From NCBI RefSeq assembly GCF_003019035.1, contig NZ_CP027447.1: a stretch of 64,000 nucleotides of DNA. One strand, 5' to 3'. Positions within the stretch are counted from its first letter, which is position 1. Each line of letters begins with the position of its first letter. This document shows, one piece after another, positions 27,385 to 47,057 of the stretch. A program made the position numbers and the translations under genes. Source of the DNA: Escherichia coli. GTDB taxonomy: Bacteria > Pseudomonadota > Gammaproteobacteria > Enterobacterales > Enterobacteriaceae. The notes under the pieces were generated by a model. It did not search any database. It worked only from the letters and a program-made list of their open reading frames with translations, and had not been told where the DNA came from.

Positions 27385-28746
27385 TCAGAAGAACAGTGAC
27401 GGATCGCCCGCCCGTTTGGTCAGGCGACCGTTTGCCATAATGCCCATGCTTTCCAGCCAGCGTTCAAACTCCGGTGACGGGCGCAGATTCAGTAACTGAC
27501 GCACAGTGGCAGTGTCGTGGAATGCGGTGGTCTGATAGTTGAGCATGATGTCATCGCCCAGCGGCATCCCCATGATGTAGTTGCAGCCTGCGGTGGCGAG
27601 CAGGATCATCAGGTTTTCGTTGAGGTTCTGGTCAGCGTCAGCGTGGTTGGTGTAGCAGCAGTCACAGCCCATAGAGATGCCACTCAGCTTGCCCATAAAG
27701 TGATCTTCTAAGCCCGCACGGATAATCTGGCGGTCGTTGTAGAGATACTCCGGCCCAATAAAGCCGACCACGGTGTTGACGATAAACGGATCGTAATGAC
27801 GCGCCAGCCCGTAGTTACGCGCTTCCATCGTCACCTGGTCTGCGCCGAAGTTAGCGCCAGCAGACAGCGCCGAACCTTGTCCGGTTTCGAAGTAGAGGCA
27901 GTTTTCCCCGGCGATACGGTTAAACTCTGCACCCACTGCGCGCGCTTCGTCGAGCATCGCCAGCTCCACGCCAAACTCTTTCAGCCCTTTTTCGCTGCCG
28001 CAAATACTCTGGAAAATCAGCCCGCCCGGTGCGCCGCGACGAATCGCTTCGATCTGGGTGGTGACGTGCGCCAGTACGCAGCCCTGAGTTGGGATGTTGA
28101 ATTTGTCGATCACGCCATAGATGGTATCCAACACGCGGCTTAAGTTTTCCACGTCGTCAGTCACCGGGTTAACGCCGATCACCGCATCGCCCACCCCGAA
28201 GGAAAGCCCTTCGTAGATTTGCGCGGCGATACTTTGCACATCGTCACGGGTATCGTTTGGCTGCAAGCGGGCGCTAAAGGTGCCCGGAATACCGATGGTG
28301 GTATTGGCCTTTTTGATCACCGGCATTTTCTTCGCGCCGTAGATCAGGTCCGCGTTGGAGCAAATCTTCGCTACCGCCGCTACCACTTCCGAGGTCAGCC
28401 CTTTGCGGGTAAAGGCAATGTCGTCCACGCTGGTTTCATCGCTCAGCACATACTCACGCAGTTCGCTGATGCTCCAGTTTTTAATCTGGTTGTAGGCCGT
28501 TTCGTTAACGTCGTCCTGAATCAGCCGCGTCACGCAGTCATCTTCATAGGCAATCACCGGATTATTGCGGATGTCCGCTACGGTCATTTCCGACAACACC
28601 TGCTTTGCCGCCACGCGCTCCTGTGAGCTTGCCGCAGCAACGCCCGCCAGCACATCCCCCGAACGCAGTTCGTTGGCTTTAGCCAGCACCTCTTTTACAT
28701 CCTTAAACTGATATACATTGCCGAACAATGTGGTCTTTAGTTTCAT
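27385..28746 (-). CDS. eutB: Ethanolamine ammonia-lyase large subunit
   Basis: 453-aa ORF MKLKTTLFGNVYQFKDVKEVLAKANELRSGDVLAGVAAASSQERVAAKQV... Confidence 0.95.
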   Translation of the reverse strand: MKLKTTLFGNVYQFKDVKEVLAKANELRSGDVLAGVAAASSQERVAAKQVLSEMTVADIRNNPVIAYEDDCVTRLIQDDVNETAYNQIKNWSISELREYVLSDETSVDDIAFTRKGLTSEVVAAVAKICSNADLIYGAKKMPVIKKANTTIGIPGTFSARLQPNDTRDDVQSIAAQIYEGLSFGVGDAVIGVNPVTDDVENLSRVLDTIYGVIDKFNIPTQGCVLAHVTTQIEAIRRGAPGGLIFQSICGSEKGLKEFGVELAMLDEARAVGAEFNRIAGENCLYFETGQGSALSAGANFGADQVTMEARNYGLARHYDPFIVNTVVGFIGPEYLYNDRQIIRAGLEDHFMGKLSGISMGCDCCYTNHADADQNLNENLMILLATAGCNYIMGMPLGDDIMLNYQTTAFHDTATVRQLLNLRPSPEFERWLESMGIMANGRLTKRAGDPSLFF

Positions 28747-28757
28747 AAGTCGTTCCC

Positions 28758-30161
28758 TCAGGAAGGAAATGCGAGTGATTTCACCGTCACCGGCACAACC
28801 GATCCGCCAAAAAGAGGCGTACCAATGTCGATATAGTCCCCCGCGCGGACAATCACTTCGTCAATGACTGCCAACGGGAGTTGTTGTAGCTGTGGGCGCA
28901 ACAACATGCCCAGAGCTTTACCAAAGTCCTGCCCGGCCACCACCAGCAGGGGATGCGGATTCGGAAAACGCGCGACGAAATCGACCAACGCGTTGATGAC
29001 CGTCAGTACCGCGGCGTAACGCACAGGCAGCGAGGCGGGAAGCGCCAGCACGTACGCGTCAGTTTTAGGATCAAGATCCAGCTGAATCAGCGCCTGTTGC
29101 CAGGCACTCACCAGATCCTTTTCATCAATTGGGATCGCCACCGGCAAGTTGCGCAGCGGCAGTTGTACGCCCTCCAGCCAGATTGTGCTGCCAGAGAGCG
29201 AAAGGGTATGTGCACCCGCGCCAATCACCGTGGCGCGCACGGTTTGCGCCGGAAACTGCACGTTCATCTCACGCAGGCGCGGATGGTCATGCAGCGCCGT
29301 TGCCAGAAGCGGGCCAATATCGGCAAAACAGAACGGGTCGGCGGGCTGGTGGCGATAACATTCGCCCACGCCGCCAGAAAGCGTAATGATTTCGGGCGTA
29401 ACACCTGCGGGCAGCAAACCGGTTTGCATTAATGCCTGCGCGAGCGGCGAAAGCGTTCCGTCAATCACTTCGACAATCAGCTCTGCCATCCGCCGGGTAA
29501 CCTGCACCAGCTGCGCGCCGGTCAGCGAACGGGCGTCGGTGCCTGCGCCGAAGCACTCATCCACAATCATCTGCCCCGGTTTATGAGCGTAAACCACGCG
29601 CCCCTGGCTGTCGGTTTCCAGCAGGCGACCGCCGACATTGAGGCAGGCGGTGCCGCTGATTTTTCCGGCATCGAACAGGGCGTAGTTCGCGGTGCCACCG
29701 CCGATATCGATATTCAGGACCCGACACAGCCGTTGTTCAGAAAGGGTTTGCGCCCCGGCACCGTGACCGGCGATCACGGATTCGAGATGCGGTCCAGCGC
29801 TGGCGACGACAAAATCGCCCAGCGACTGGGAGAGCGTCATCACCGCCGGGCGAGCGTTGCGGGTTTTCGCGCTTTCACCGGTGATGATGATGGCACCAGA
29901 ATCAACGCTTTCCGGCGCAATGCCCGCAGCCTGATATTGCTCGAGGATTAAGGTTTTCAGTTCCGCTTCTTTTAAACCACCCTGTTTATCGACAGGGGTA
30001 AAGAACACCGGGCTTTGCCAGCTAATTTCGCGTTTGATGAATTCGTAGCGCGGCACCTGCGACACCGCCGCACGGTTAACCAGCTCCAGGTGGGAGAAAA
30101 TCACCTGGGTGGTGGTGGTGCCGATATCGATACCGACGCTCAGTAGCTGGCGAGTGTTCAC
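28758..30161 (-). CDS. eutA: Ethanolamine ammonia-lyase reactivase EutA
   Basis: 467-aa ORF MNTRQLLSVGIDIGTTTTQVIFSHL...; starts 11 bp after eutB with no intervening prophage. Confidence 0.9.
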   Translation of the reverse strand: MNTRQLLSVGIDIGTTTTQVIFSHLELVNRAAVSQVPRYEFIKREISWQSPVFFTPVDKQGGLKEAELKTLILEQYQAAGIAPESVDSGAIIITGESAKTRNARPAVMTLSQSLGDFVVASAGPHLESVIAGHGAGAQTLSEQRLCRVLNIDIGGGTANYALFDAGKISGTACLNVGGRLLETDSQGRVVYAHKPGQMIVDECFGAGTDARSLTGAQLVQVTRRMAELIVEVIDGTLSPLAQALMQTGLLPAGVTPEIITLSGGVGECYRHQPADPFCFADIGPLLATALHDHPRLREMNVQFPAQTVRATVIGAGAHTLSLSGSTIWLEGVQLPLRNLPVAIPIDEKDLVSAWQQALIQLDLDPKTDAYVLALPASLPVRYAAVLTVINALVDFVARFPNPHPLLVVAGQDFGKALGMLLRPQLQQLPLAVIDEVIVRAGDYIDIGTPLFGGSVVPVTVKSLAFPS

Positions 30162-31384: not shown

Positions 31385-31437
31385 CGCCTTTACTCCCTGT
31401 TAGTTGTTATTTATTGCCAATGCTGAAAGTGGGTTTT

Positions 31438-31556
31438 TCCCTCACTCTGGAAGCCGAGGGGCCGGGGTGAGGGTAATTGTTTGCACCGGCGCGACTCTGT
31501 TCCCCTCACCCTAACCCTCTCCCCAAAGGGGCGAGGGGACTGTCCGTACACTTTTA
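31438..31556. repeat. Composite GC-rich palindromic intergenic repeat (possibly Box C-type) in the eutH-eutG spacer
   Basis: Inverted repeat ccctcac...gtgaggg (31438-31472) followed by tgttcccctcaccctaaccctctccccaaaggggcgaggggactgtccgtacactttt; a second copy of the latter lies at 46998-47055. Confidence 0.7.
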
Positions 31557-33577: not shown

Positions 33578-34981
33578 TTAAACAATGCGAAACGCATCGA
33601 CTAATACACAGCGACGCAGACGGACAAACGTCCGCGCGCTGGTTACCCCTTCACCGGTTGGCGTGGTGATGGTCATCGTGGTCCAGCCTTCCCCGCCCAG
33701 CCCCAGCCCGGCAATGCACGGTCCGTTCTTAACGAAAATGCTGGTATCAATGGCGTTCGCCATCTGGTTCATGTTTTCGATGTTGCGCGAGTGCATTGCC
33801 GCCGTGTGGTGGCAACCGCCTTCCAGTTTCACCGCCAGCGCAATGGCATCCGCCACGTTGGCGACGCGCACGACGGGCAGCACCGGCATCATCAGTTCAG
33901 TCACAGCAAACGGATGTTCTGCGGTGGTTTCTACAAACAGCAGTCGCGTTTGTTCCGGAACTTTAAGGCCGATTGCCGCCGCGATTTTCGCCGCATCGCG
34001 ACCAACCCAGTCACGGCTGACGGTGCCTTTTCCGCACTCGTCGATATTTTTCAGCAACACCGATTGCAGTTGCTGCGCCTGCTCTGCGGTCAGTTTCACC
34101 GCATGCTGGCCTTCCATCAGACGCATCAGTTCATCGGCTACGCTATCAACAACAATCAGTACCTTTTCGTCGGCACAAATGATGTTGTTATCGAAAGACG
34201 CGCCTTTGACGATGGACTGAGCAGCACGGGCGAGGTCGGCGGTTTCATCCACCACTACCGGCGGGTTGCCAGCGCCTGCGGCAATCAGACGTTTATTGGT
34301 GTGTTTACGCGCCGCTTCCACTACCGCTTCGCCGCCGGTCACCACCAGCAGGCCGATACCCGGGAACTTGAACAAACGTTGCGCGGTTTCGATATCCGGA
34401 TTGGCCACAGTAACCAGTAAGTTTTCCGGCCCGCCTGCGGCAACAATCGCCTGGTTGAGCAGCGTAATCGCCCGCTGGGAGACTTTTTTCGCCGCCGGAT
34501 GCGGGGCAAAAATGACGCTGTTGCCCGCGGCAATCAGGCTGATGGCGTTGTTAATTACGGTTGCCGCCGGGTTAGTGGAAGGCGTCACCGAAGCCACCAC
34601 GCCCCAGGGCGCGTTTTCAATCAGGGTCAGGCCGTTGTCACCGGTCAGCACCTGTGGTGAGAGGCACTCAACGCCTGGTGTGCCGCGCGCCTGAGCGACG
34701 TTTTTGGCAAATTTATCTTCAACGCGCCCCATGCCGGTTTCACTGACGGCAAGTTCCGCTAAATCTCTGGCGTGTTTTTCGCCTGCCTCACGAATGGCAG
34801 CAATGGCTAACTGGCGCATTGCCACGCTTTTTAACCCTTGCTGGGCGACTTTGGCTGCCGCAACGGCGTCATCCAGGGACGCGAAAACGCCCATCTCATG
34901 AACGGCGGCGGGCGGCGTGTCACTGCTTTGCATTTTCAGCAGTACCGCTTTCACCACCTGTTCAATATCCTGTTGATTCAT
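33578..34981 (-). CDS. eutE: Acetaldehyde dehydrogenase (CoA-acylating) EutE
   Basis: 467-aa ORF MNQQDIEQVVKAVLLKMQSS... (N-terminal encapsulation-like helix) plus ALDH fold. Confidence 0.9.
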   Translation of the reverse strand: MNQQDIEQVVKAVLLKMQSSDTPPAAVHEMGVFASLDDAVAAAKVAQQGLKSVAMRQLAIAAIREAGEKHARDLAELAVSETGMGRVEDKFAKNVAQARGTPGVECLSPQVLTGDNGLTLIENAPWGVVASVTPSTNPAATVINNAISLIAAGNSVIFAPHPAAKKVSQRAITLLNQAIVAAGGPENLLVTVANPDIETAQRLFKFPGIGLLVVTGGEAVVEAARKHTNKRLIAAGAGNPPVVVDETADLARAAQSIVKGASFDNNIICADEKVLIVVDSVADELMRLMEGQHAVKLTAEQAQQLQSVLLKNIDECGKGTVSRDWVGRDAAKIAAAIGLKVPEQTRLLFVETTAEHPFAVTELMMPVLPVVRVANVADAIALAVKLEGGCHHTAAMHSRNIENMNQMANAIDTSIFVKNGPCIAGLGLGGEGWTTMTITTPTGEGVTSARTFVRLRRCVLVDAFRIV

Positions 34982-34992
34982 GATGTTCTGCC

Positions 34993-35280
34993 TTATTTGT
35001 GGAAAATGACCTGACCGCCAGACACCACCTCATCGACGATGCCAATCACGCACAGATCGACCGGTGACGTTTCGCTTTTATGCGCCTGGCGGGCGGAACT
35101 GCCACTCACCAGCAACACCCACTCCCCGGTTCCCGCGCCAATATTGTCGATGGCGACGGCGCATTGCCCGTCAGGATTACCTTGTGGATCAATCATTTCC
35201 ACCATCAGCAATTTGTCATGCGCCAGTCCGTGATGGCGTACGGTACAAACAATTTGTCCAGTGACGACTGCCAGTTTCAT
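34993..35280 (-). CDS. eutN: BMC vertex (pentamer) protein EutN
   Basis: 95-aa ORF MKLAVVTGQIVCTVRHHGLAHDKLLMVEMIDPQG... Confidence 0.9.
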   Translation of the reverse strand: MKLAVVTGQIVCTVRHHGLAHDKLLMVEMIDPQGNPDGQCAVAIDNIGAGTGEWVLLVSGSSARQAHKSETSPVDLCVIGIVDEVVSGGQVIFHK

Positions 35281-35386
35281 ACCCGCCTCCGTGGCGTATT
35301 TCAGGTAAAAGCTCCCCCTACCCTCCGCAGAAGGTAAAATGAAAAAGGAGAGAGCGTGACGCCCGAATCGACGTCACACAGGGTGA

Positions 35387-35680
35387 TTACAGGTTGCTGC
35401 TATCGCCTTTCAGGCCGATCGGGAAGACTTCTTCCAGGTCGCCGTGCGGACGCGGGATAACGTGTACAGATACCAGCTCGCCGATACGCTGTGCCGCTGC
35501 GGCACCTGCATCGGTCGCGGCTTTACAGGCTGCAACATCACCACGAACCATGGCAGTACACAGGCCGCCGCCAATCTGCTTAACACCAACCAGCTTGACG
35601 CGCGCAGCTTTAACCATCGCGTCAGAAGCCTCAATCAGTGCAACCAGGCCCCGGGTTTCGATCATTCCTAATGCTTCCAT
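35387..35680 (-). CDS. eutM: BMC hexamer shell protein EutM
   Basis: ORF track 35387..35722(-) trimmed to [40 protein letters not shown]; 97 aa. Confidence 0.85.
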
Positions 35681-35718
35681 TGTGCTTTCCTCTTTATCAG
35701 GGTCCAGAACGGGACCGT

Positions 35719-36735
35719 TCATTCAACCAGTGTTTGTAAACTGCTTTCGCGGTTCACTTCTGTCTGACGCGGCACAGCTGCCACCAGCGCCAGTTCGATA
35801 ATTTCCTGCACGCTACAACCACGAGAGAGATCGTGCATCGGCGCGGCAAGTCCTTGTATCAATGGCCCGACGGCACGATATCCGCCAAGTCGTTGTGCGA
35901 TTTTGTAGCCAATATTTCCGGCTTCCAGCGACGGAAAAACCATCACATTGGCCTTGCCTTGTAGCGGGCTGGCAGGCGCTTTTTGCGCCGCCACTTCCGG
36001 CACGAAGGCGGCGTCAAACTGCAACTCGCCATCGACAACCAGCTTTGGTGCGCGCTCACGGACGATTTCTGTCGCCTGCTGCACGTTGGCAACGCAGGGG
36101 TGACGGGCACTACCGTTGCTGGAAAACGACAGCATCGCCACGCGCGGTTCTTCTCCGGTGATGGCGCGCCAGGTTTCGGCGCTGGCAAGCGCGATATCCG
36201 CCAACTGCGCCGCCGTCGGCTGTGGCACCACGCTGCAATCGGCAAAACCCAACGCCGGACCGCTGTACTGTGGCAGCATCAGGAAAATGGATGAGAGCGT
36301 TTTACAGCCTGGCTGCAAGCCAATAATGCGTAATCCGGCACGCAGCACATTCGCCGTGGAAGAGAGGTTGCCCGCGATACAGACATCCGCTTTACCGGCG
36401 CTGACCATTGCTGCGGCGAACATCAGCGGGTCGGTAAGTTTTTCCAGCGCATCCGGCGGCGTTTTTTCGCCCGCGCGGGCCAGCCAGCGATGAGCAAATT
36501 CTTCCCGCATTGCGAGGTTGCCATGCGGATCAATCACCTGTAGCCCGTCCATCGCCACGCCATGACTGAGCGCAAACTGACGAAGTTCAAACGGATTGGC
36601 GACCAGAATGGGCGTTGCCAGACCTTGTTGATGTAAATATTGCGCAGCTTTCAGCACACGTTGATCTAACGCATCCGGAAAAACTACTCTGGCGGGCGCT
36701 CGCAACGCCAGTTCACGACAACGTTTAATAATCAT
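35719..36735 (-). CDS. eutD: Phosphotransacetylase EutD
   Basis: 338-aa [41 protein letters not shown]... Confidence 0.9.
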
Positions 36736-46997: not shown

Positions 46998-47057
46998 TGT
47001 TCCCCTCACCCTAACCCTCTCCCCAGAGGGGCGAGGGGACGGTCCGTGCGCTTTTTA
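46998..47057. repeat. GC-rich palindromic intergenic repeat (second copy) downstream of tktB
   Basis: tgttcccctcaccctaaccctctccccagaggggcgaggggacggtccgtgcgcttttt; 54/58 identical to 31498-31555, same orientation. Confidence 0.7.

What the first reader, a model, noticed from the sequence alone, without database searches (positions are those of the whole stretch)
35281..35386. 106-bp structured spacer between shell genes eutN and eutM
The eutM-eutN junction has a 106-bp non-coding gap where most eut genes are tightly packed. It contains an inverted repeat (gtgacg-cccgaatcga-cgtcac) and a purine-rich run before eutN. A structured spacer after the major shell gene could set shell-protein stoichiometry through partial termination or differential mRNA stability.
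Basis: inference. Interest (0 to 1): 0.25.

Follow-up and report, generated by a model that had tools for sequence, protein, structure and literature searches.

The report
Conserved two-hairpin spacer after eutM
The 106-base gap between the E. coli microcompartment shell genes eutM and eutN is a real, conserved pair of RNA hairpins ending in a short U-run, most likely a leaky terminator and mRNA-protecting element; this is a familiar kind of device that I found no description of for this operon.

Summary
The window carries an intact E. coli eut operon on the minus strand, and eutM (35387-35680) and eutN (34993-35280) are separated by exactly 106 nt.

On the eut transcript the gap folds into:
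- hairpin 1 (10 bp, -16 kcal/mol), starting 7 nt after the eutM stop;
- a pyrimidine-rich linker;
- a composite hairpin 2 (about -17 to -19 kcal/mol) that abuts UUUUACCUGAAAU;
- the eutN Shine-Dalgarno sequence.

It has no Rfam match and is single-copy in 5407 of 5426 E. coli genomes.

Across 52 eutM-eutN junctions the gap is always 50-211 nt and always holds a strong stem-loop near its start. Twenty-nine junctions share this module, with invariant or compensated stems, freely varying loops and covariation in hairpin 2. This group includes one betaproteobacterium. Fifteen others carry REP elements instead, and the two solutions never co-occur.

The likeliest role is a leaky terminator and 3'-end protector that also breaks translational coupling. 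This function is inferred, not shown. Published proteomics (EutM 96, EutN 1, EutE 27) mean polarity alone cannot set the EutN level.

It is a new member of a known kind, of moderate interest.

The parts
35387..35680 (-). eutM CDS (97 aa BMC-H shell protein), stop TAA at 35387-35389
   Evidence: ORF list and translation. PGAP annotation of identical DNA.
35281..35386 (-). 106-nt eutM-eutN intercistronic spacer (the finding)
   Evidence: Covariance model R1 hits 35293-35380 (-) and nowhere else in the window.
35354..35379 (-). Hairpin 1: GUGUGACGUC-GAUUCG-GGCGUCACGC, 10 bp, -16.2 kcal/mol, begins 7 nt after the stop codon
   Evidence: Arms are conserved and loops of 5-22 nt vary freely. An E. 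coli SNP at 35362 turns a U.G pair into U-A.
35337..35353 (-). Pyrimidine-rich linker UCUCUCCUUUUUCAUUU. It is the tail of hairpin 1, and its 5' part forms the outer 5' arm of hairpin 2.
   Evidence: The slightly longer 27-nt stretch from hairpin 1 to the hairpin-2 apical loop has 24 pyrimidines and 1 G. A pyrimidine tract follows hairpin 1 in all genera with this module.
35311..35355 (-). Hairpin 2, composite: outer helix GCUCUCUC/GGGGGAGC (slippery register), internal loop, and inner helix
   Evidence: Folds at -16.9 to -18.7 kcal/mol. The same architecture is found in 9 lineages.
35319..35336 (-). Inner helix of hairpin 2: UACCUUC-UGCG-GAGGGUA
   Evidence: On an unfitted MAFFT alignment of 9 lineages, 94% of cells are paired and 4 of 6 pairs show double-sided changes. 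Covariation score 0.62 vs 0.345 +/- 0.06 in shuffles (0/500 reach it). Slid controls pair 37-61%.
35297..35310 (-). U-tract plus conserved box UUUUACCUGAAAUA, directly 3' of hairpin 2
   Evidence: Invariant in Escherichia, Citrobacter, K. spallanzanii, Phytobacter and P. gergoviae. Variants are UUUUUUUACCCAAAAU, CUUUAAACAAAAU and CUUUGCCCGAAAUA. TransTerm-like tail score -4.2.
35284..35296 (-). eutN ribosome-binding region: CGCC-ACGGA-GGCG mini-hairpin containing the Shine-Dalgarno GGAGG (35286-35290)
   Evidence: GGAGG is invariant in all 20 rows of alignment A1 (hairpin-1-type spacers). The REP-type spacers carry GGAGG or a one-base variant (GGGAGG, GGAGAC) at the same spot. The mini-hairpin folds at -4.9 kcal/mol. 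The predicted opening energy of the eutN RBS is 13.4 kcal/mol, among the highest in the operon.
34993..35280 (-). eutN CDS (95 aa vertex pentamer protein)

Best explanation
On the eut mRNA, the eutM-eutN gap is a conserved cis-acting RNA module. It consists of a stable hairpin 7 nt after the eutM stop, a pyrimidine-rich linker, a second composite hairpin whose 3' arm abuts UUUU-ACCUGAAAU, and then the eutN ribosome-binding site.

I propose that it works as an intercistronic attenuator and 3'-end protector.
1. A fraction of transcripts end here, either by leaky intrinsic termination at hairpin 2 plus U4, or by endonucleolytic cleavage in the AU-rich box (GC|UUUU fits the RNase E RN|WUU preference).
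2. The two hairpins then block 3'->5' exonucleases, which favours the eutSPQTDM segment over eutN...eutR.
3. The 106-nt structured gap also breaks translational coupling, so the rare vertex protein EutN depends on its own, apparently poor, initiation.

Shown here: the structure, its conservation and covariation, its unique position, and its replacement by REP elements in other lineages. Inferred: termination, cleavage, protection, and any effect on stoichiometry.
For: Structure and uniqueness:
- Fold z = -3.17. Hairpin 1 is flagged as terminator-like.
- No Rfam family matches, so it is not a known riboswitch or leader.
- It is single-copy and present in 5407/5426 E. coli genomes.

Comparative evidence:
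- All 52 eutM->eutN junctions examined have a 50-211-nt gap with a stem-loop of -14 kcal/mol or stronger starting within 30 nt of the stop.
- Hairpin 1 starts 5-9 nt after the stop in every lineage with the module.
- Hairpin-1 arms are 15-16/16 identical, loops are free, and the 3' 75 nt are 91-93% identical against 55-64% at four-fold sites (P 1e-8 to 1e-12).
- The hairpin-2 inner helix covaries.
- Model R1 finds the module only in eutM-eutN spacers, out to P. gergoviae (E 3e-4) and Silvimonas (E 0.015).
- In lineage L069 the tail is a 7-U run, and in L071 a 15-bp hairpin is followed by UUUUU.
- Fifteen junctions carry REP elements instead, never together with the module.

Literature:
- REPs act as partial terminators and upstream-mRNA stabilisers.
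- Stem-loop stability sets PNPase stops in E. coli (PMC10667835).
- The two most abundant Eut proteins, EutQ (100) and EutM (96), both lie upstream of the spacer, and the highest downstream value is 39.
Against: - No RNA 3'-end, coverage or half-life data exist for this junction. The one 3'-end map checked has only an antisense end in eutM, and eut is not induced in those conditions.
- The U-tracts are short or interrupted: hairpin 1 is followed by UCUCUCCU, and hairpin 2 by only four U. Yokenella and the C. freundii complex have poor tails after hairpin 1.
- Protein levels are not step-like. Upstream EutD, EutS and EutP are 10, 11 and 7, while downstream EutE, EutB and EutL are 27, 37 and 39. 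EutN at 1 cannot be explained by polarity.
- E. coli lineages, including O157:H7, carry SNPs that break pairs of the hairpin-2 outer helix (35347, 35314).
- The pdu operon has no such spacer after pduA.
- The conserved ACCUGAAAU downstream of the U-run is not something a plain terminator needs.
Confidence: 0.5

Rival explanations
1. Purely translational insulator. A stable hairpin 5-9 nt after the stop codon of the very heavily translated eutM, plus a long structured gap, stops terminating ribosomes from sliding on and re-initiating at eutN. EutN then stays about 100-fold below EutM, and mRNA levels are unaffected.
For: - The stop-to-hairpin distance is conserved at 5-9 nt in all lineages with the module, whatever the stem sequence.
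- Any hairpin seems to do, since REPs substitute.
- EutN is 1 while the next gene EutE is 27, so the EutN level is set translationally.
- Every other junction in the operon except eutG-eutH is 45 nt or less, or an overlap.
- The eutN RBS has a predicted opening energy of 13.4 kcal/mol against 5.5-5.8 for eutM, eutE, eutB and eutC.
Against: - It does not explain the strong conservation of hairpin 2 and the UUUUACCUGAAAU box.
- No conserved helix sequestering the Shine-Dalgarno sequence was found by RNAalifold.
- The correlation between RBS opening energy and abundance depends on the folding window (rho -0.62, p = 0.03, versus -0.41, not significant).
- From my own knowledge, not checked here: Liang, Rudd and Deutscher 2015 reported that stop-proximal REPs lower expression of the upstream gene through ribosome stalling. 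That would act on EutM, not EutN.
Confidence: 0.2
2. Rho-dependent attenuator. The untranslated, C-rich and G-poor linker after hairpin 1 serves as a Rho loading site, giving partial polarity on eutN and the genes downstream. REPs would do the same in other genera.
For: - The linker has 9 C and 1 G in 27 nt.
- A pyrimidine tract follows hairpin 1 in all lineages with the module.
- REP325 attenuation is partly Rho-dependent.
Against: - The tract is short, whereas rut sites are typically about 70-80 nt (my own knowledge).
- It is largely paired with the G-run in the predicted fold.
- Downstream proteins are abundant.
Confidence: 0.1
3. A specific regulatory RNA. Either the module is a regulated attenuator recognised by an unknown factor, or it is released as a roughly 75-nt sRNA derived from the eutM 3' end (5' hairpin, CU-rich seed, terminator hairpin with U-tail).
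For: - Primary-sequence conservation goes beyond what stems require: the outer CUCUCC/GGGGAG helix and the ACCUGAAAU box.
- The layout resembles Hfq-type sRNAs (inference only).
Against: - No Rfam match.
- The CU tract is paired in the minimum-free-energy fold.
- The box has no better complement in the eut mRNA than shuffled boxes do.
- Whole lineages, including Salmonella and Klebsiella, do without it.
- No expression data exist.
Confidence: 0.1
4. Functionless spacer. The gap is simply tolerated non-coding DNA in which palindromes and REPs accumulate.
For: - REPs of varied number and orientation occupy the site in many species.
- An IS911 sits in the spacer in one E. coli strain.
- Two E. 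coli SNPs break outer-helix pairs.
Against: - Conservation is far above the neutral rate.
- Covariation is present.
- The gap persists in all 52 junctions, although every other junction but one is compact.
Confidence: 0.05

Closest known systems
REP/BIME elements between co-transcribed genes (malE-malF; REP325 in yjdM-yjdN)
   Same: - Stable hairpins sit just 3' of the more highly expressed upstream cistron.
- They are reported to act as both partial terminators and barriers to 3' exonucleases.
- REPs occupy this very junction in Salmonella, Klebsiella, C. koseri, C. amalonaticus, C. sedlakii, Pseudocitrobacter and others.
   Different: - The E. coli element has no REP consensus.
- It is single-copy in the genome.
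- It is vertically conserved with its own sequence motifs: hairpin 2 and the ACCUGAAAU box.
Selective RNA processing and stabilisation, and internal terminators, that set subunit stoichiometry (C. cellulolyticum cip-cel operon, PMC4423207; clostridial ABC importers, PMC9045158; E. coli genome-wide, PMC10667835)
   Same: An intercistronic stem-loop follows the gene whose product is needed in excess. The stem-loop energies (-16 to -19 kcal/mol) fall between the weak (-9.3) and strong (-25.4 kcal/mol) stem-loops tested as PNPase barriers in that study.
   Different: No processing site, 3' end or half-life difference has been measured here. The protein data do not show a clean step at the junction.
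Rho-independent terminators and attenuators
   Same: GC-rich hairpins are followed by U-containing tails on the transcribed strand only. Both hairpins pass TransTerm-like candidate thresholds.
   Different: The U-runs are short or interrupted. A conserved non-U box follows. The element lies inside an operon whose downstream genes are essential for the pathway, so it can only be leaky.
ANTAR (EutV)-controlled terminators inside Firmicute eut operons
   Same: Tandem hairpins lie between eut genes, and the second is terminator-like.
   Different: The loops are not A1/G4 hexaloops and vary from 5 to 22 nt. There is no eutVW in this operon and no Rfam hit.

Membership tests
Rho-independent (intrinsic) terminator | Stable GC-rich stem-loop on the transcribed strand | tested here: met
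   Hairpin 1 folds at -16.2 kcal/mol and hairpin 2 at -16.9 to -18.7 kcal/mol.
Rho-independent (intrinsic) terminator | U-tract of about 7-9 nt immediately 3' of the stem | tested here: inconclusive
   Hairpin 1 is followed by UCUCUCCU (4 of 8 U, tail score -3.15). Hairpin 2 is followed by UUUUACCU (4 consecutive U, tail score -4.19). Tails range from -1.6 (Yokenella) to -4.5 (Buttiauxella), and L069 has 7 U.
Rho-independent (intrinsic) terminator | Generates RNA 3' ends in vivo or in vitro | not testable with these tools
   The only 3'-end map consulted lacks eut induction and shows only an antisense end.
REP/BIME | REP palindromic-unit consensus (GCCGGATAAGGCG / CTTATCCGGCCTAC type) | tested here: not met
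   The window matches to the REP motif lie elsewhere and none falls in 35281-35386. By contrast, 15 other junctions do carry the motif.
REP/BIME | Dispersed, multi-copy in the genome | tested here: not met
   One place per E. coli genome even at E <= 10 with 11-nt words. One covariance-model hit in the window.
Intercistronic stabiliser hairpin (selective RNA processing and stabilisation) | Stable stem-loop at the 3' end of the cistron needed in excess | tested here: met
   The hairpins start 7 nt after eutM. EutM is the most abundant shell protein.
Intercistronic stabiliser hairpin (selective RNA processing and stabilisation) | Endonuclease (RNase E) cleavage 3' of the hairpin | tested here: inconclusive
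   GC|UUUU and GG|UUUU fit RN|WUU by inspection only. No cleavage data exist.
Intercistronic stabiliser hairpin (selective RNA processing and stabilisation) | Upstream segment more abundant or longer-lived than the downstream segment | not testable with these tools
   Only protein iBAQ values are available, and they are ambiguous.
ANTAR-regulated terminator | Two hairpins with hexaloops (A at position 1, G at position 4), plus an ANTAR regulator in the locus | tested here: not met
   The loop is GAUUCG in E. coli and 5-22 nt elsewhere. The operon is eutSPQTDMNEJGHABCLKR with no eutVW.
Any curated RNA family (riboswitch, leader, sRNA) | Match to an Rfam 15 covariance model | tested here: not met
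   Zero matches at E <= 10 over 34500-36200 on both strands.

The most novel reading that the evidence does not exclude
The module (hairpin 1, CU-rich linker, hairpin 2, UUUUACCUGAAAU) is a discrete conserved regulatory RNA of proteobacterial eut operons. It would be either a factor- or signal-responsive attenuator that sets the ratio of shell facets to vertices and enzymes, or the source of a trans-acting sRNA derived from the eutM 3' end. It would not be just a passive hairpin barrier.
Probability: 0.12. Interest if true: 0.65.

Novelty: new member of a known kind. Interest (0 to 1): 0.38.

Why it matters
How a single 17-gene operon yields shell and enzyme components in very different amounts is an open practical question for Eut microcompartment biology and for engineering synthetic shells.

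This spacer is one of only two long non-coding junctions in the operon (the other is eutG-eutH). It sits exactly between the most abundant shell protein and the rarest one. It is under clear selection, and in other genera it has been replaced by REP elements.

That makes it a concrete, easily mutated candidate control point. It is also a natural test of whether REPs and bespoke hairpins are functionally interchangeable.

If it turns out to be only a passive barrier, it is an ordinary example of intra-operon tuning.

Tried and rejected
- Rfam scan on both strands at E <= 10: nothing. This excludes AdoCbl riboswitches, ANTAR targets and known sRNAs.
- Sigma-70 promoter in the spacer: none on either strand. 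The only promoter-like hit lies inside eutN.
- Dispersed repeat: rejected, since the spacer is single-copy by blastn and by covariance model.
- Small ORFs and stop-codon readthrough or frameshift stimulated by the stop-proximal hairpin: rejected. Loop indels are not multiples of three, the in-frame extension ends after 22 codons, and the antisense 6-codon ORF is not conserved.
- Dimeric DNA-binding site (CRP-like GTGAC...GTCAC): rejected, because arm spacing varies from 5 to 22 nt.
- Long-range pairing of the ACCUGAAAU box with the rest of the eut mRNA: the best duplex (-16.7 kcal/mol) is no better than shuffled boxes give.
- Conserved sequestration of the eutN Shine-Dalgarno sequence: RNAalifold finds none. 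The long-range ACCC/GGGU helix of the E. coli fold is only 62% paired across species.
- General rule 'hairpin after the major shell gene': pduA and pduB overlap.
- Literature: I found no description of this element. The eutM/eutN locus appears only as an annotation oddity in Salmonella (PMC3548604). Kofoid et al. 1999 is not held.
- MAFFT and covariance-model alignments misplace hairpin 2 of the distant lineages, so the outer helix could not be assessed column-wise.

Full report
**What is there.**
The window is Escherichia coli DNA. A 306-nt stretch around the finding is 100% identical to K-12 and to many other strains, and it occurs in 5407 of 5426 complete genomes. The eut operon lies on the minus strand as eutSPQTDMNEJGHABCLKR, from about 39035 down to 24197, with no prophage between eutA and eutB. 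eutM is 35387-35680 and eutN is 34993-35280. PGAP annotates nothing in it. All other junctions in the operon are overlaps or at most 45 nt, except eutG-eutH at about 169 nt.

**Anatomy on the eut transcript.**
The spacer folds at -43 kcal/mol, against -32.3 +/- 3.4 for dinucleotide shuffles (z = -3.17). The antisense strand folds less well (z = -2.14). Reading 5' to 3':
- a 7-nt leader;
- hairpin 1, GUGUGACGUC-GAUUCG-GGCGUCACGC (35354-35379, -16.2 kcal/mol);
- a pyrimidine-rich linker (9 C, 15 U, 1 G and 2 A in 27 nt);
- a composite hairpin 2 (35311-35355). Its outer helix GCUCUCUC/GGGGGAGC has a slippery register. Its inner helix is UACCUUC-UGCG-GAGGGUA. It folds at -16.9 to -18.7 kcal/mol;
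- UUUUACCUGAAAUA (35297-35310);
- a small hairpin holding the Shine-Dalgarno GGAGG (35286-35290), then the ATG.

Its purine runs are the 3' half of hairpin 2 and the eutN Shine-Dalgarno region. The hairpin-1 motif occurs once in 64 kb where 0.01 is expected. No Rfam 15 family matches on either strand at E <= 10. No promoter-like site lies in the spacer.

**Comparative evidence.**
A scan of one genome per species with EutN gave 48 loci. Nine further loci came from EutN homologues down to 58% identity. In all 52 junctions where eutM precedes eutN, the gap is 50-211 nt (median 111). Every gap holds a stem-loop of -14 kcal/mol or stronger starting within 30 nt of the stop. The junctions fall into mutually exclusive classes.

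- *The module seen here: 25 junctions with the GTGACG hairpin-1 core and the box, plus 4 with the box but a different hairpin-1 sequence.* These come from Escherichia, the C. freundii complex, other Citrobacter, K. spallanzanii, Phytobacter, Buttiauxella, Entomohabitans, Pluralibacter gergoviae, two unnamed metagenome contigs, and the betaproteobacterium Silvimonas.
- *Hairpin 1 only: 2 junctions,* from Yokenella and one metagenome contig.
- *REP elements: 15 junctions,* from Salmonella, K. pneumoniae, K. oxytoca, K. michiganensis, K. grimontii, C. koseri, C. amalonaticus, C. sedlakii, Pseudocitrobacter, and two unclassified or MAG contigs (a Pluralibacter sp. MAG and an unnamed metagenome contig).
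- *Other GC-rich hairpins: 6 junctions,* including Pseudomonas, Rhodocyclaceae and Intestinirhabdus.

**Selection.**
Four-fold-degenerate sites in eutM and eutN are 55-66% identical between E. coli and Citrobacter or K. spallanzanii. They are 39-56% identical between E. coli and Buttiauxella, Entomohabitans or Yokenella. By contrast:
- the two 8-nt arms of hairpin 1 are 15-16/16 identical in all of these genera;
- the hairpin-1 loop is unalignable, at 5-22 nt;
- the 75 nt from the linker to the ATG are 91-93% identical between E. coli and the C. freundii complex (binomial P 1e-8 to 1e-12).

Hairpin 1 always starts 5-9 nt after the stop codon. In the more distant lineages its stem sequence is entirely different but still forms 8-12 bp. 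Yokenella shows a G-C to A-U exchange.

For the hairpin-2 inner helix I used a plain MAFFT alignment of nine lineages that was not fitted to any structure. On it, 94% of cells pair, and the three failures are a one-column shift in Silvimonas. Four of six pairs show double-sided changes. The covariation score is 0.62 against 0.345 +/- 0.06 in shuffles (0/500 reach it), and slid controls pair only 37-61%. An earlier count on 20 sequences agrees.

A covariance model built from ten close sequences hits the window once, at 35293-35380 (-). Elsewhere in 234 kb it hits only eutM-eutN spacers on the sense strand, apart from weak (E >= 0.18) antisense hits to the palindromic hairpin-1 core within those same spacers. 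The more distant hits are Buttiauxella (E 5e-5), P. gergoviae (3e-4), Entomohabitans (3e-3), Silvimonas (0.015), L070 (0.08) and L069 (0.2).

Within E. coli, nine sampled variants carry five SNPs:
- one turns a U.G pair in hairpin 1 into U-A;
- one lies in the hairpin-2 apical loop;
- one lies in the internal loop;
- two break pairs of the hairpin-2 outer helix, one of them in O157:H7 and O145.

So hairpin 1 and the inner helix look tightly constrained, and the outer helix less so.

**How it probably works.**
Two stable hairpins sit directly behind the most abundant shell gene, and the second abuts a U-run. This is the architecture of leaky internal terminators and of 3'-end-protecting stem-loops.
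- Hairpin 1 was flagged as terminator-like.
- TransTerm-style tail scores are -3.15 for hairpin 1 and -4.19 for hairpin 2. These are candidate-grade but weak.
- In L069 the tail is seven U, and L071 has a textbook hairpin followed by UUUUU.
- GC|UUUU at the foot of hairpin 2 fits the RNase E RN|WUU preference, by inspection only.
- In E. coli, stem-loop stability determines where PNPase stops (PMC10667835).
- REPs, which replace the module in 15 junctions, act as both partial terminators and upstream-mRNA stabilisers in tandem gene pairs (bioRxiv 10.64898/2026.03.23.713779).

I therefore favour a combined attenuator and 3'-end-protector role that also uncouples eutN translation from eutM (confidence about 0.5). 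All the functional steps are inferred.

**Limits of the stoichiometry idea.**
Published iBAQ data for E. coli W3110 on ethanolamine give, relative to EutQ = 100 (PMC11334477):

| Position relative to spacer | Protein values |
|---|---|
| Upstream | EutM 96, EutD 10, EutS 11, EutP 7 |
| Downstream | EutN 1, EutE 27, EutB 37, EutC 24, EutL 39 |

EutE is translated from the codons immediately after eutN and is 27-fold more abundant than EutN. The low EutN level must therefore be translational. An RNA-level step at the spacer could account for only about 2-4-fold.

The eutN ribosome-binding site has a predicted opening energy of 13.4 kcal/mol, one of the highest in the operon (eutG and eutR are as high or higher), against 5.5-5.8 for eutM, eutE, eutB and eutC. 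However, the correlation with abundance depends on the folding window, and no conserved helix sequestering the Shine-Dalgarno sequence exists. The pdu operon has no equivalent spacer, since pduA and pduB overlap by 4 nt. No transcript 3'-end data exist for induced eut. The one map I checked shows only an antisense end inside eutM.

**Rivals.**
- *Pure translational insulator.* This is supported by the conserved stop-to-hairpin distance, but it does not explain hairpin 2 or the box.
- *Rho-dependent attenuation through the C-rich, G-poor linker.*
- *A specific regulatory RNA or an sRNA derived from the eutM 3' end.* The sequence conservation of CUCUCC/GGGGAG and ACCUGAAAU exceeds what stems need. 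There is no supporting evidence, though, and the box has no special complement in the eut mRNA.
- *Neutral spacer.* This is contradicted by the conservation.

**Comparison with what is known, and verdict.**
Functionally the element resembles intercistronic REPs, stem-loops of the selective RNA processing and stabilisation type, and internal terminators. It is not a REP: it lacks the consensus and is single-copy. It is not an ANTAR target and not a member of any Rfam family. I found no paper describing it. The locus appears in the literature only as an annotation problem in Salmonella, where S. Typhi has a fused 690-bp eutM-eutN ORF (PMC3548604).

I classify it as a new member of a known kind, with interest about 0.38.

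Noticed in passing
window 31385-31553 (eutG-eutH gap) and 47002-47022: This is the other long non-coding junction of the operon, at about 169 nt. It holds a GC-rich palindromic element (cccctcgcccctttggggagagggttagggtgagggg ...). Its 21-mer GGAGAGGGTTAGGGTGAGGGG recurs exactly at 47002-47022, so it is a dispersed repeat of a different family from REP.
   Followed up: partly
window 28746-28758: eutA and eutB are 11 nt apart, so this strain has an intact eut operon without the cryptic prophage that interrupts it in K-12 MG1655 and BW25113.
   Followed up: partly
L059 2597-3765 (E. coli strain 90-1); insertion point corresponds to window ~35307/35308: An IS3-family IS911 element is inserted in the spacer, right after GGGGGAGCTTT at the foot of hairpin 2. 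It separates eutM from eutN by about 1.3 kb and is a natural polar disruption.
   Followed up: partly
window ~35444, + strand (MG1655 2572217 +): A published 3'-end map lists an antisense RNA 3' end inside the 3' part of eutM. This implies a + strand transcript that crosses the spacer in non-inducing conditions (PMC7815308 supplement). Its origin is unknown.
   Followed up: no
L027, L035 (Salmonella spacers of 111-112 nt): The Salmonella REP-type spacer in L027 is 111 nt, a multiple of three. S. Typhi CT18 and Ty2 are annotated with a single 690-bp eutM-eutN ORF (291 + 111 + 288), i.e. a read-through fusion across the REP spacer (PMC3548604).
   Followed up: partly
window 35332-35339 and 35303-35310 (minus strand): The 8-mer TTTTACCT occurs twice in the spacer: once as the 5' flank and arm of the hairpin-2 inner helix, and once as the U-tract and box. 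Buttiauxella A111 also has two box-like copies (CTTTTACCTGA and CTTTATCTGAA). This may be an old duplication or chance (roughly 0.09 expected).
   Followed up: no
L019, L033, L044; P0001: Very short contigs (269-466 nt) filed under Gemelliphila, Prolixibacteraceae and Caballeronia, plus a 'Bifidobacterium dentium' protein record, encode EutN that is 87-100% identical to the E. coli protein. These are most likely enterobacterial contamination of those assemblies.
   Followed up: no
L060-L063 3282-3285: In the Salmonella-type pdu operon, pduA and pduB overlap by 4 nt. The major Pdu shell gene therefore has no structured spacer behind it.
   Followed up: partly
L015, L018 (C. amalonaticus S646, C. 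koseri), first 20 nt of the spacer: The REP-type spacers begin with a small GACG-GCUA-CGUC hairpin right after the stop codon. This may be a remnant of the hairpin-1 core.
   Followed up: no
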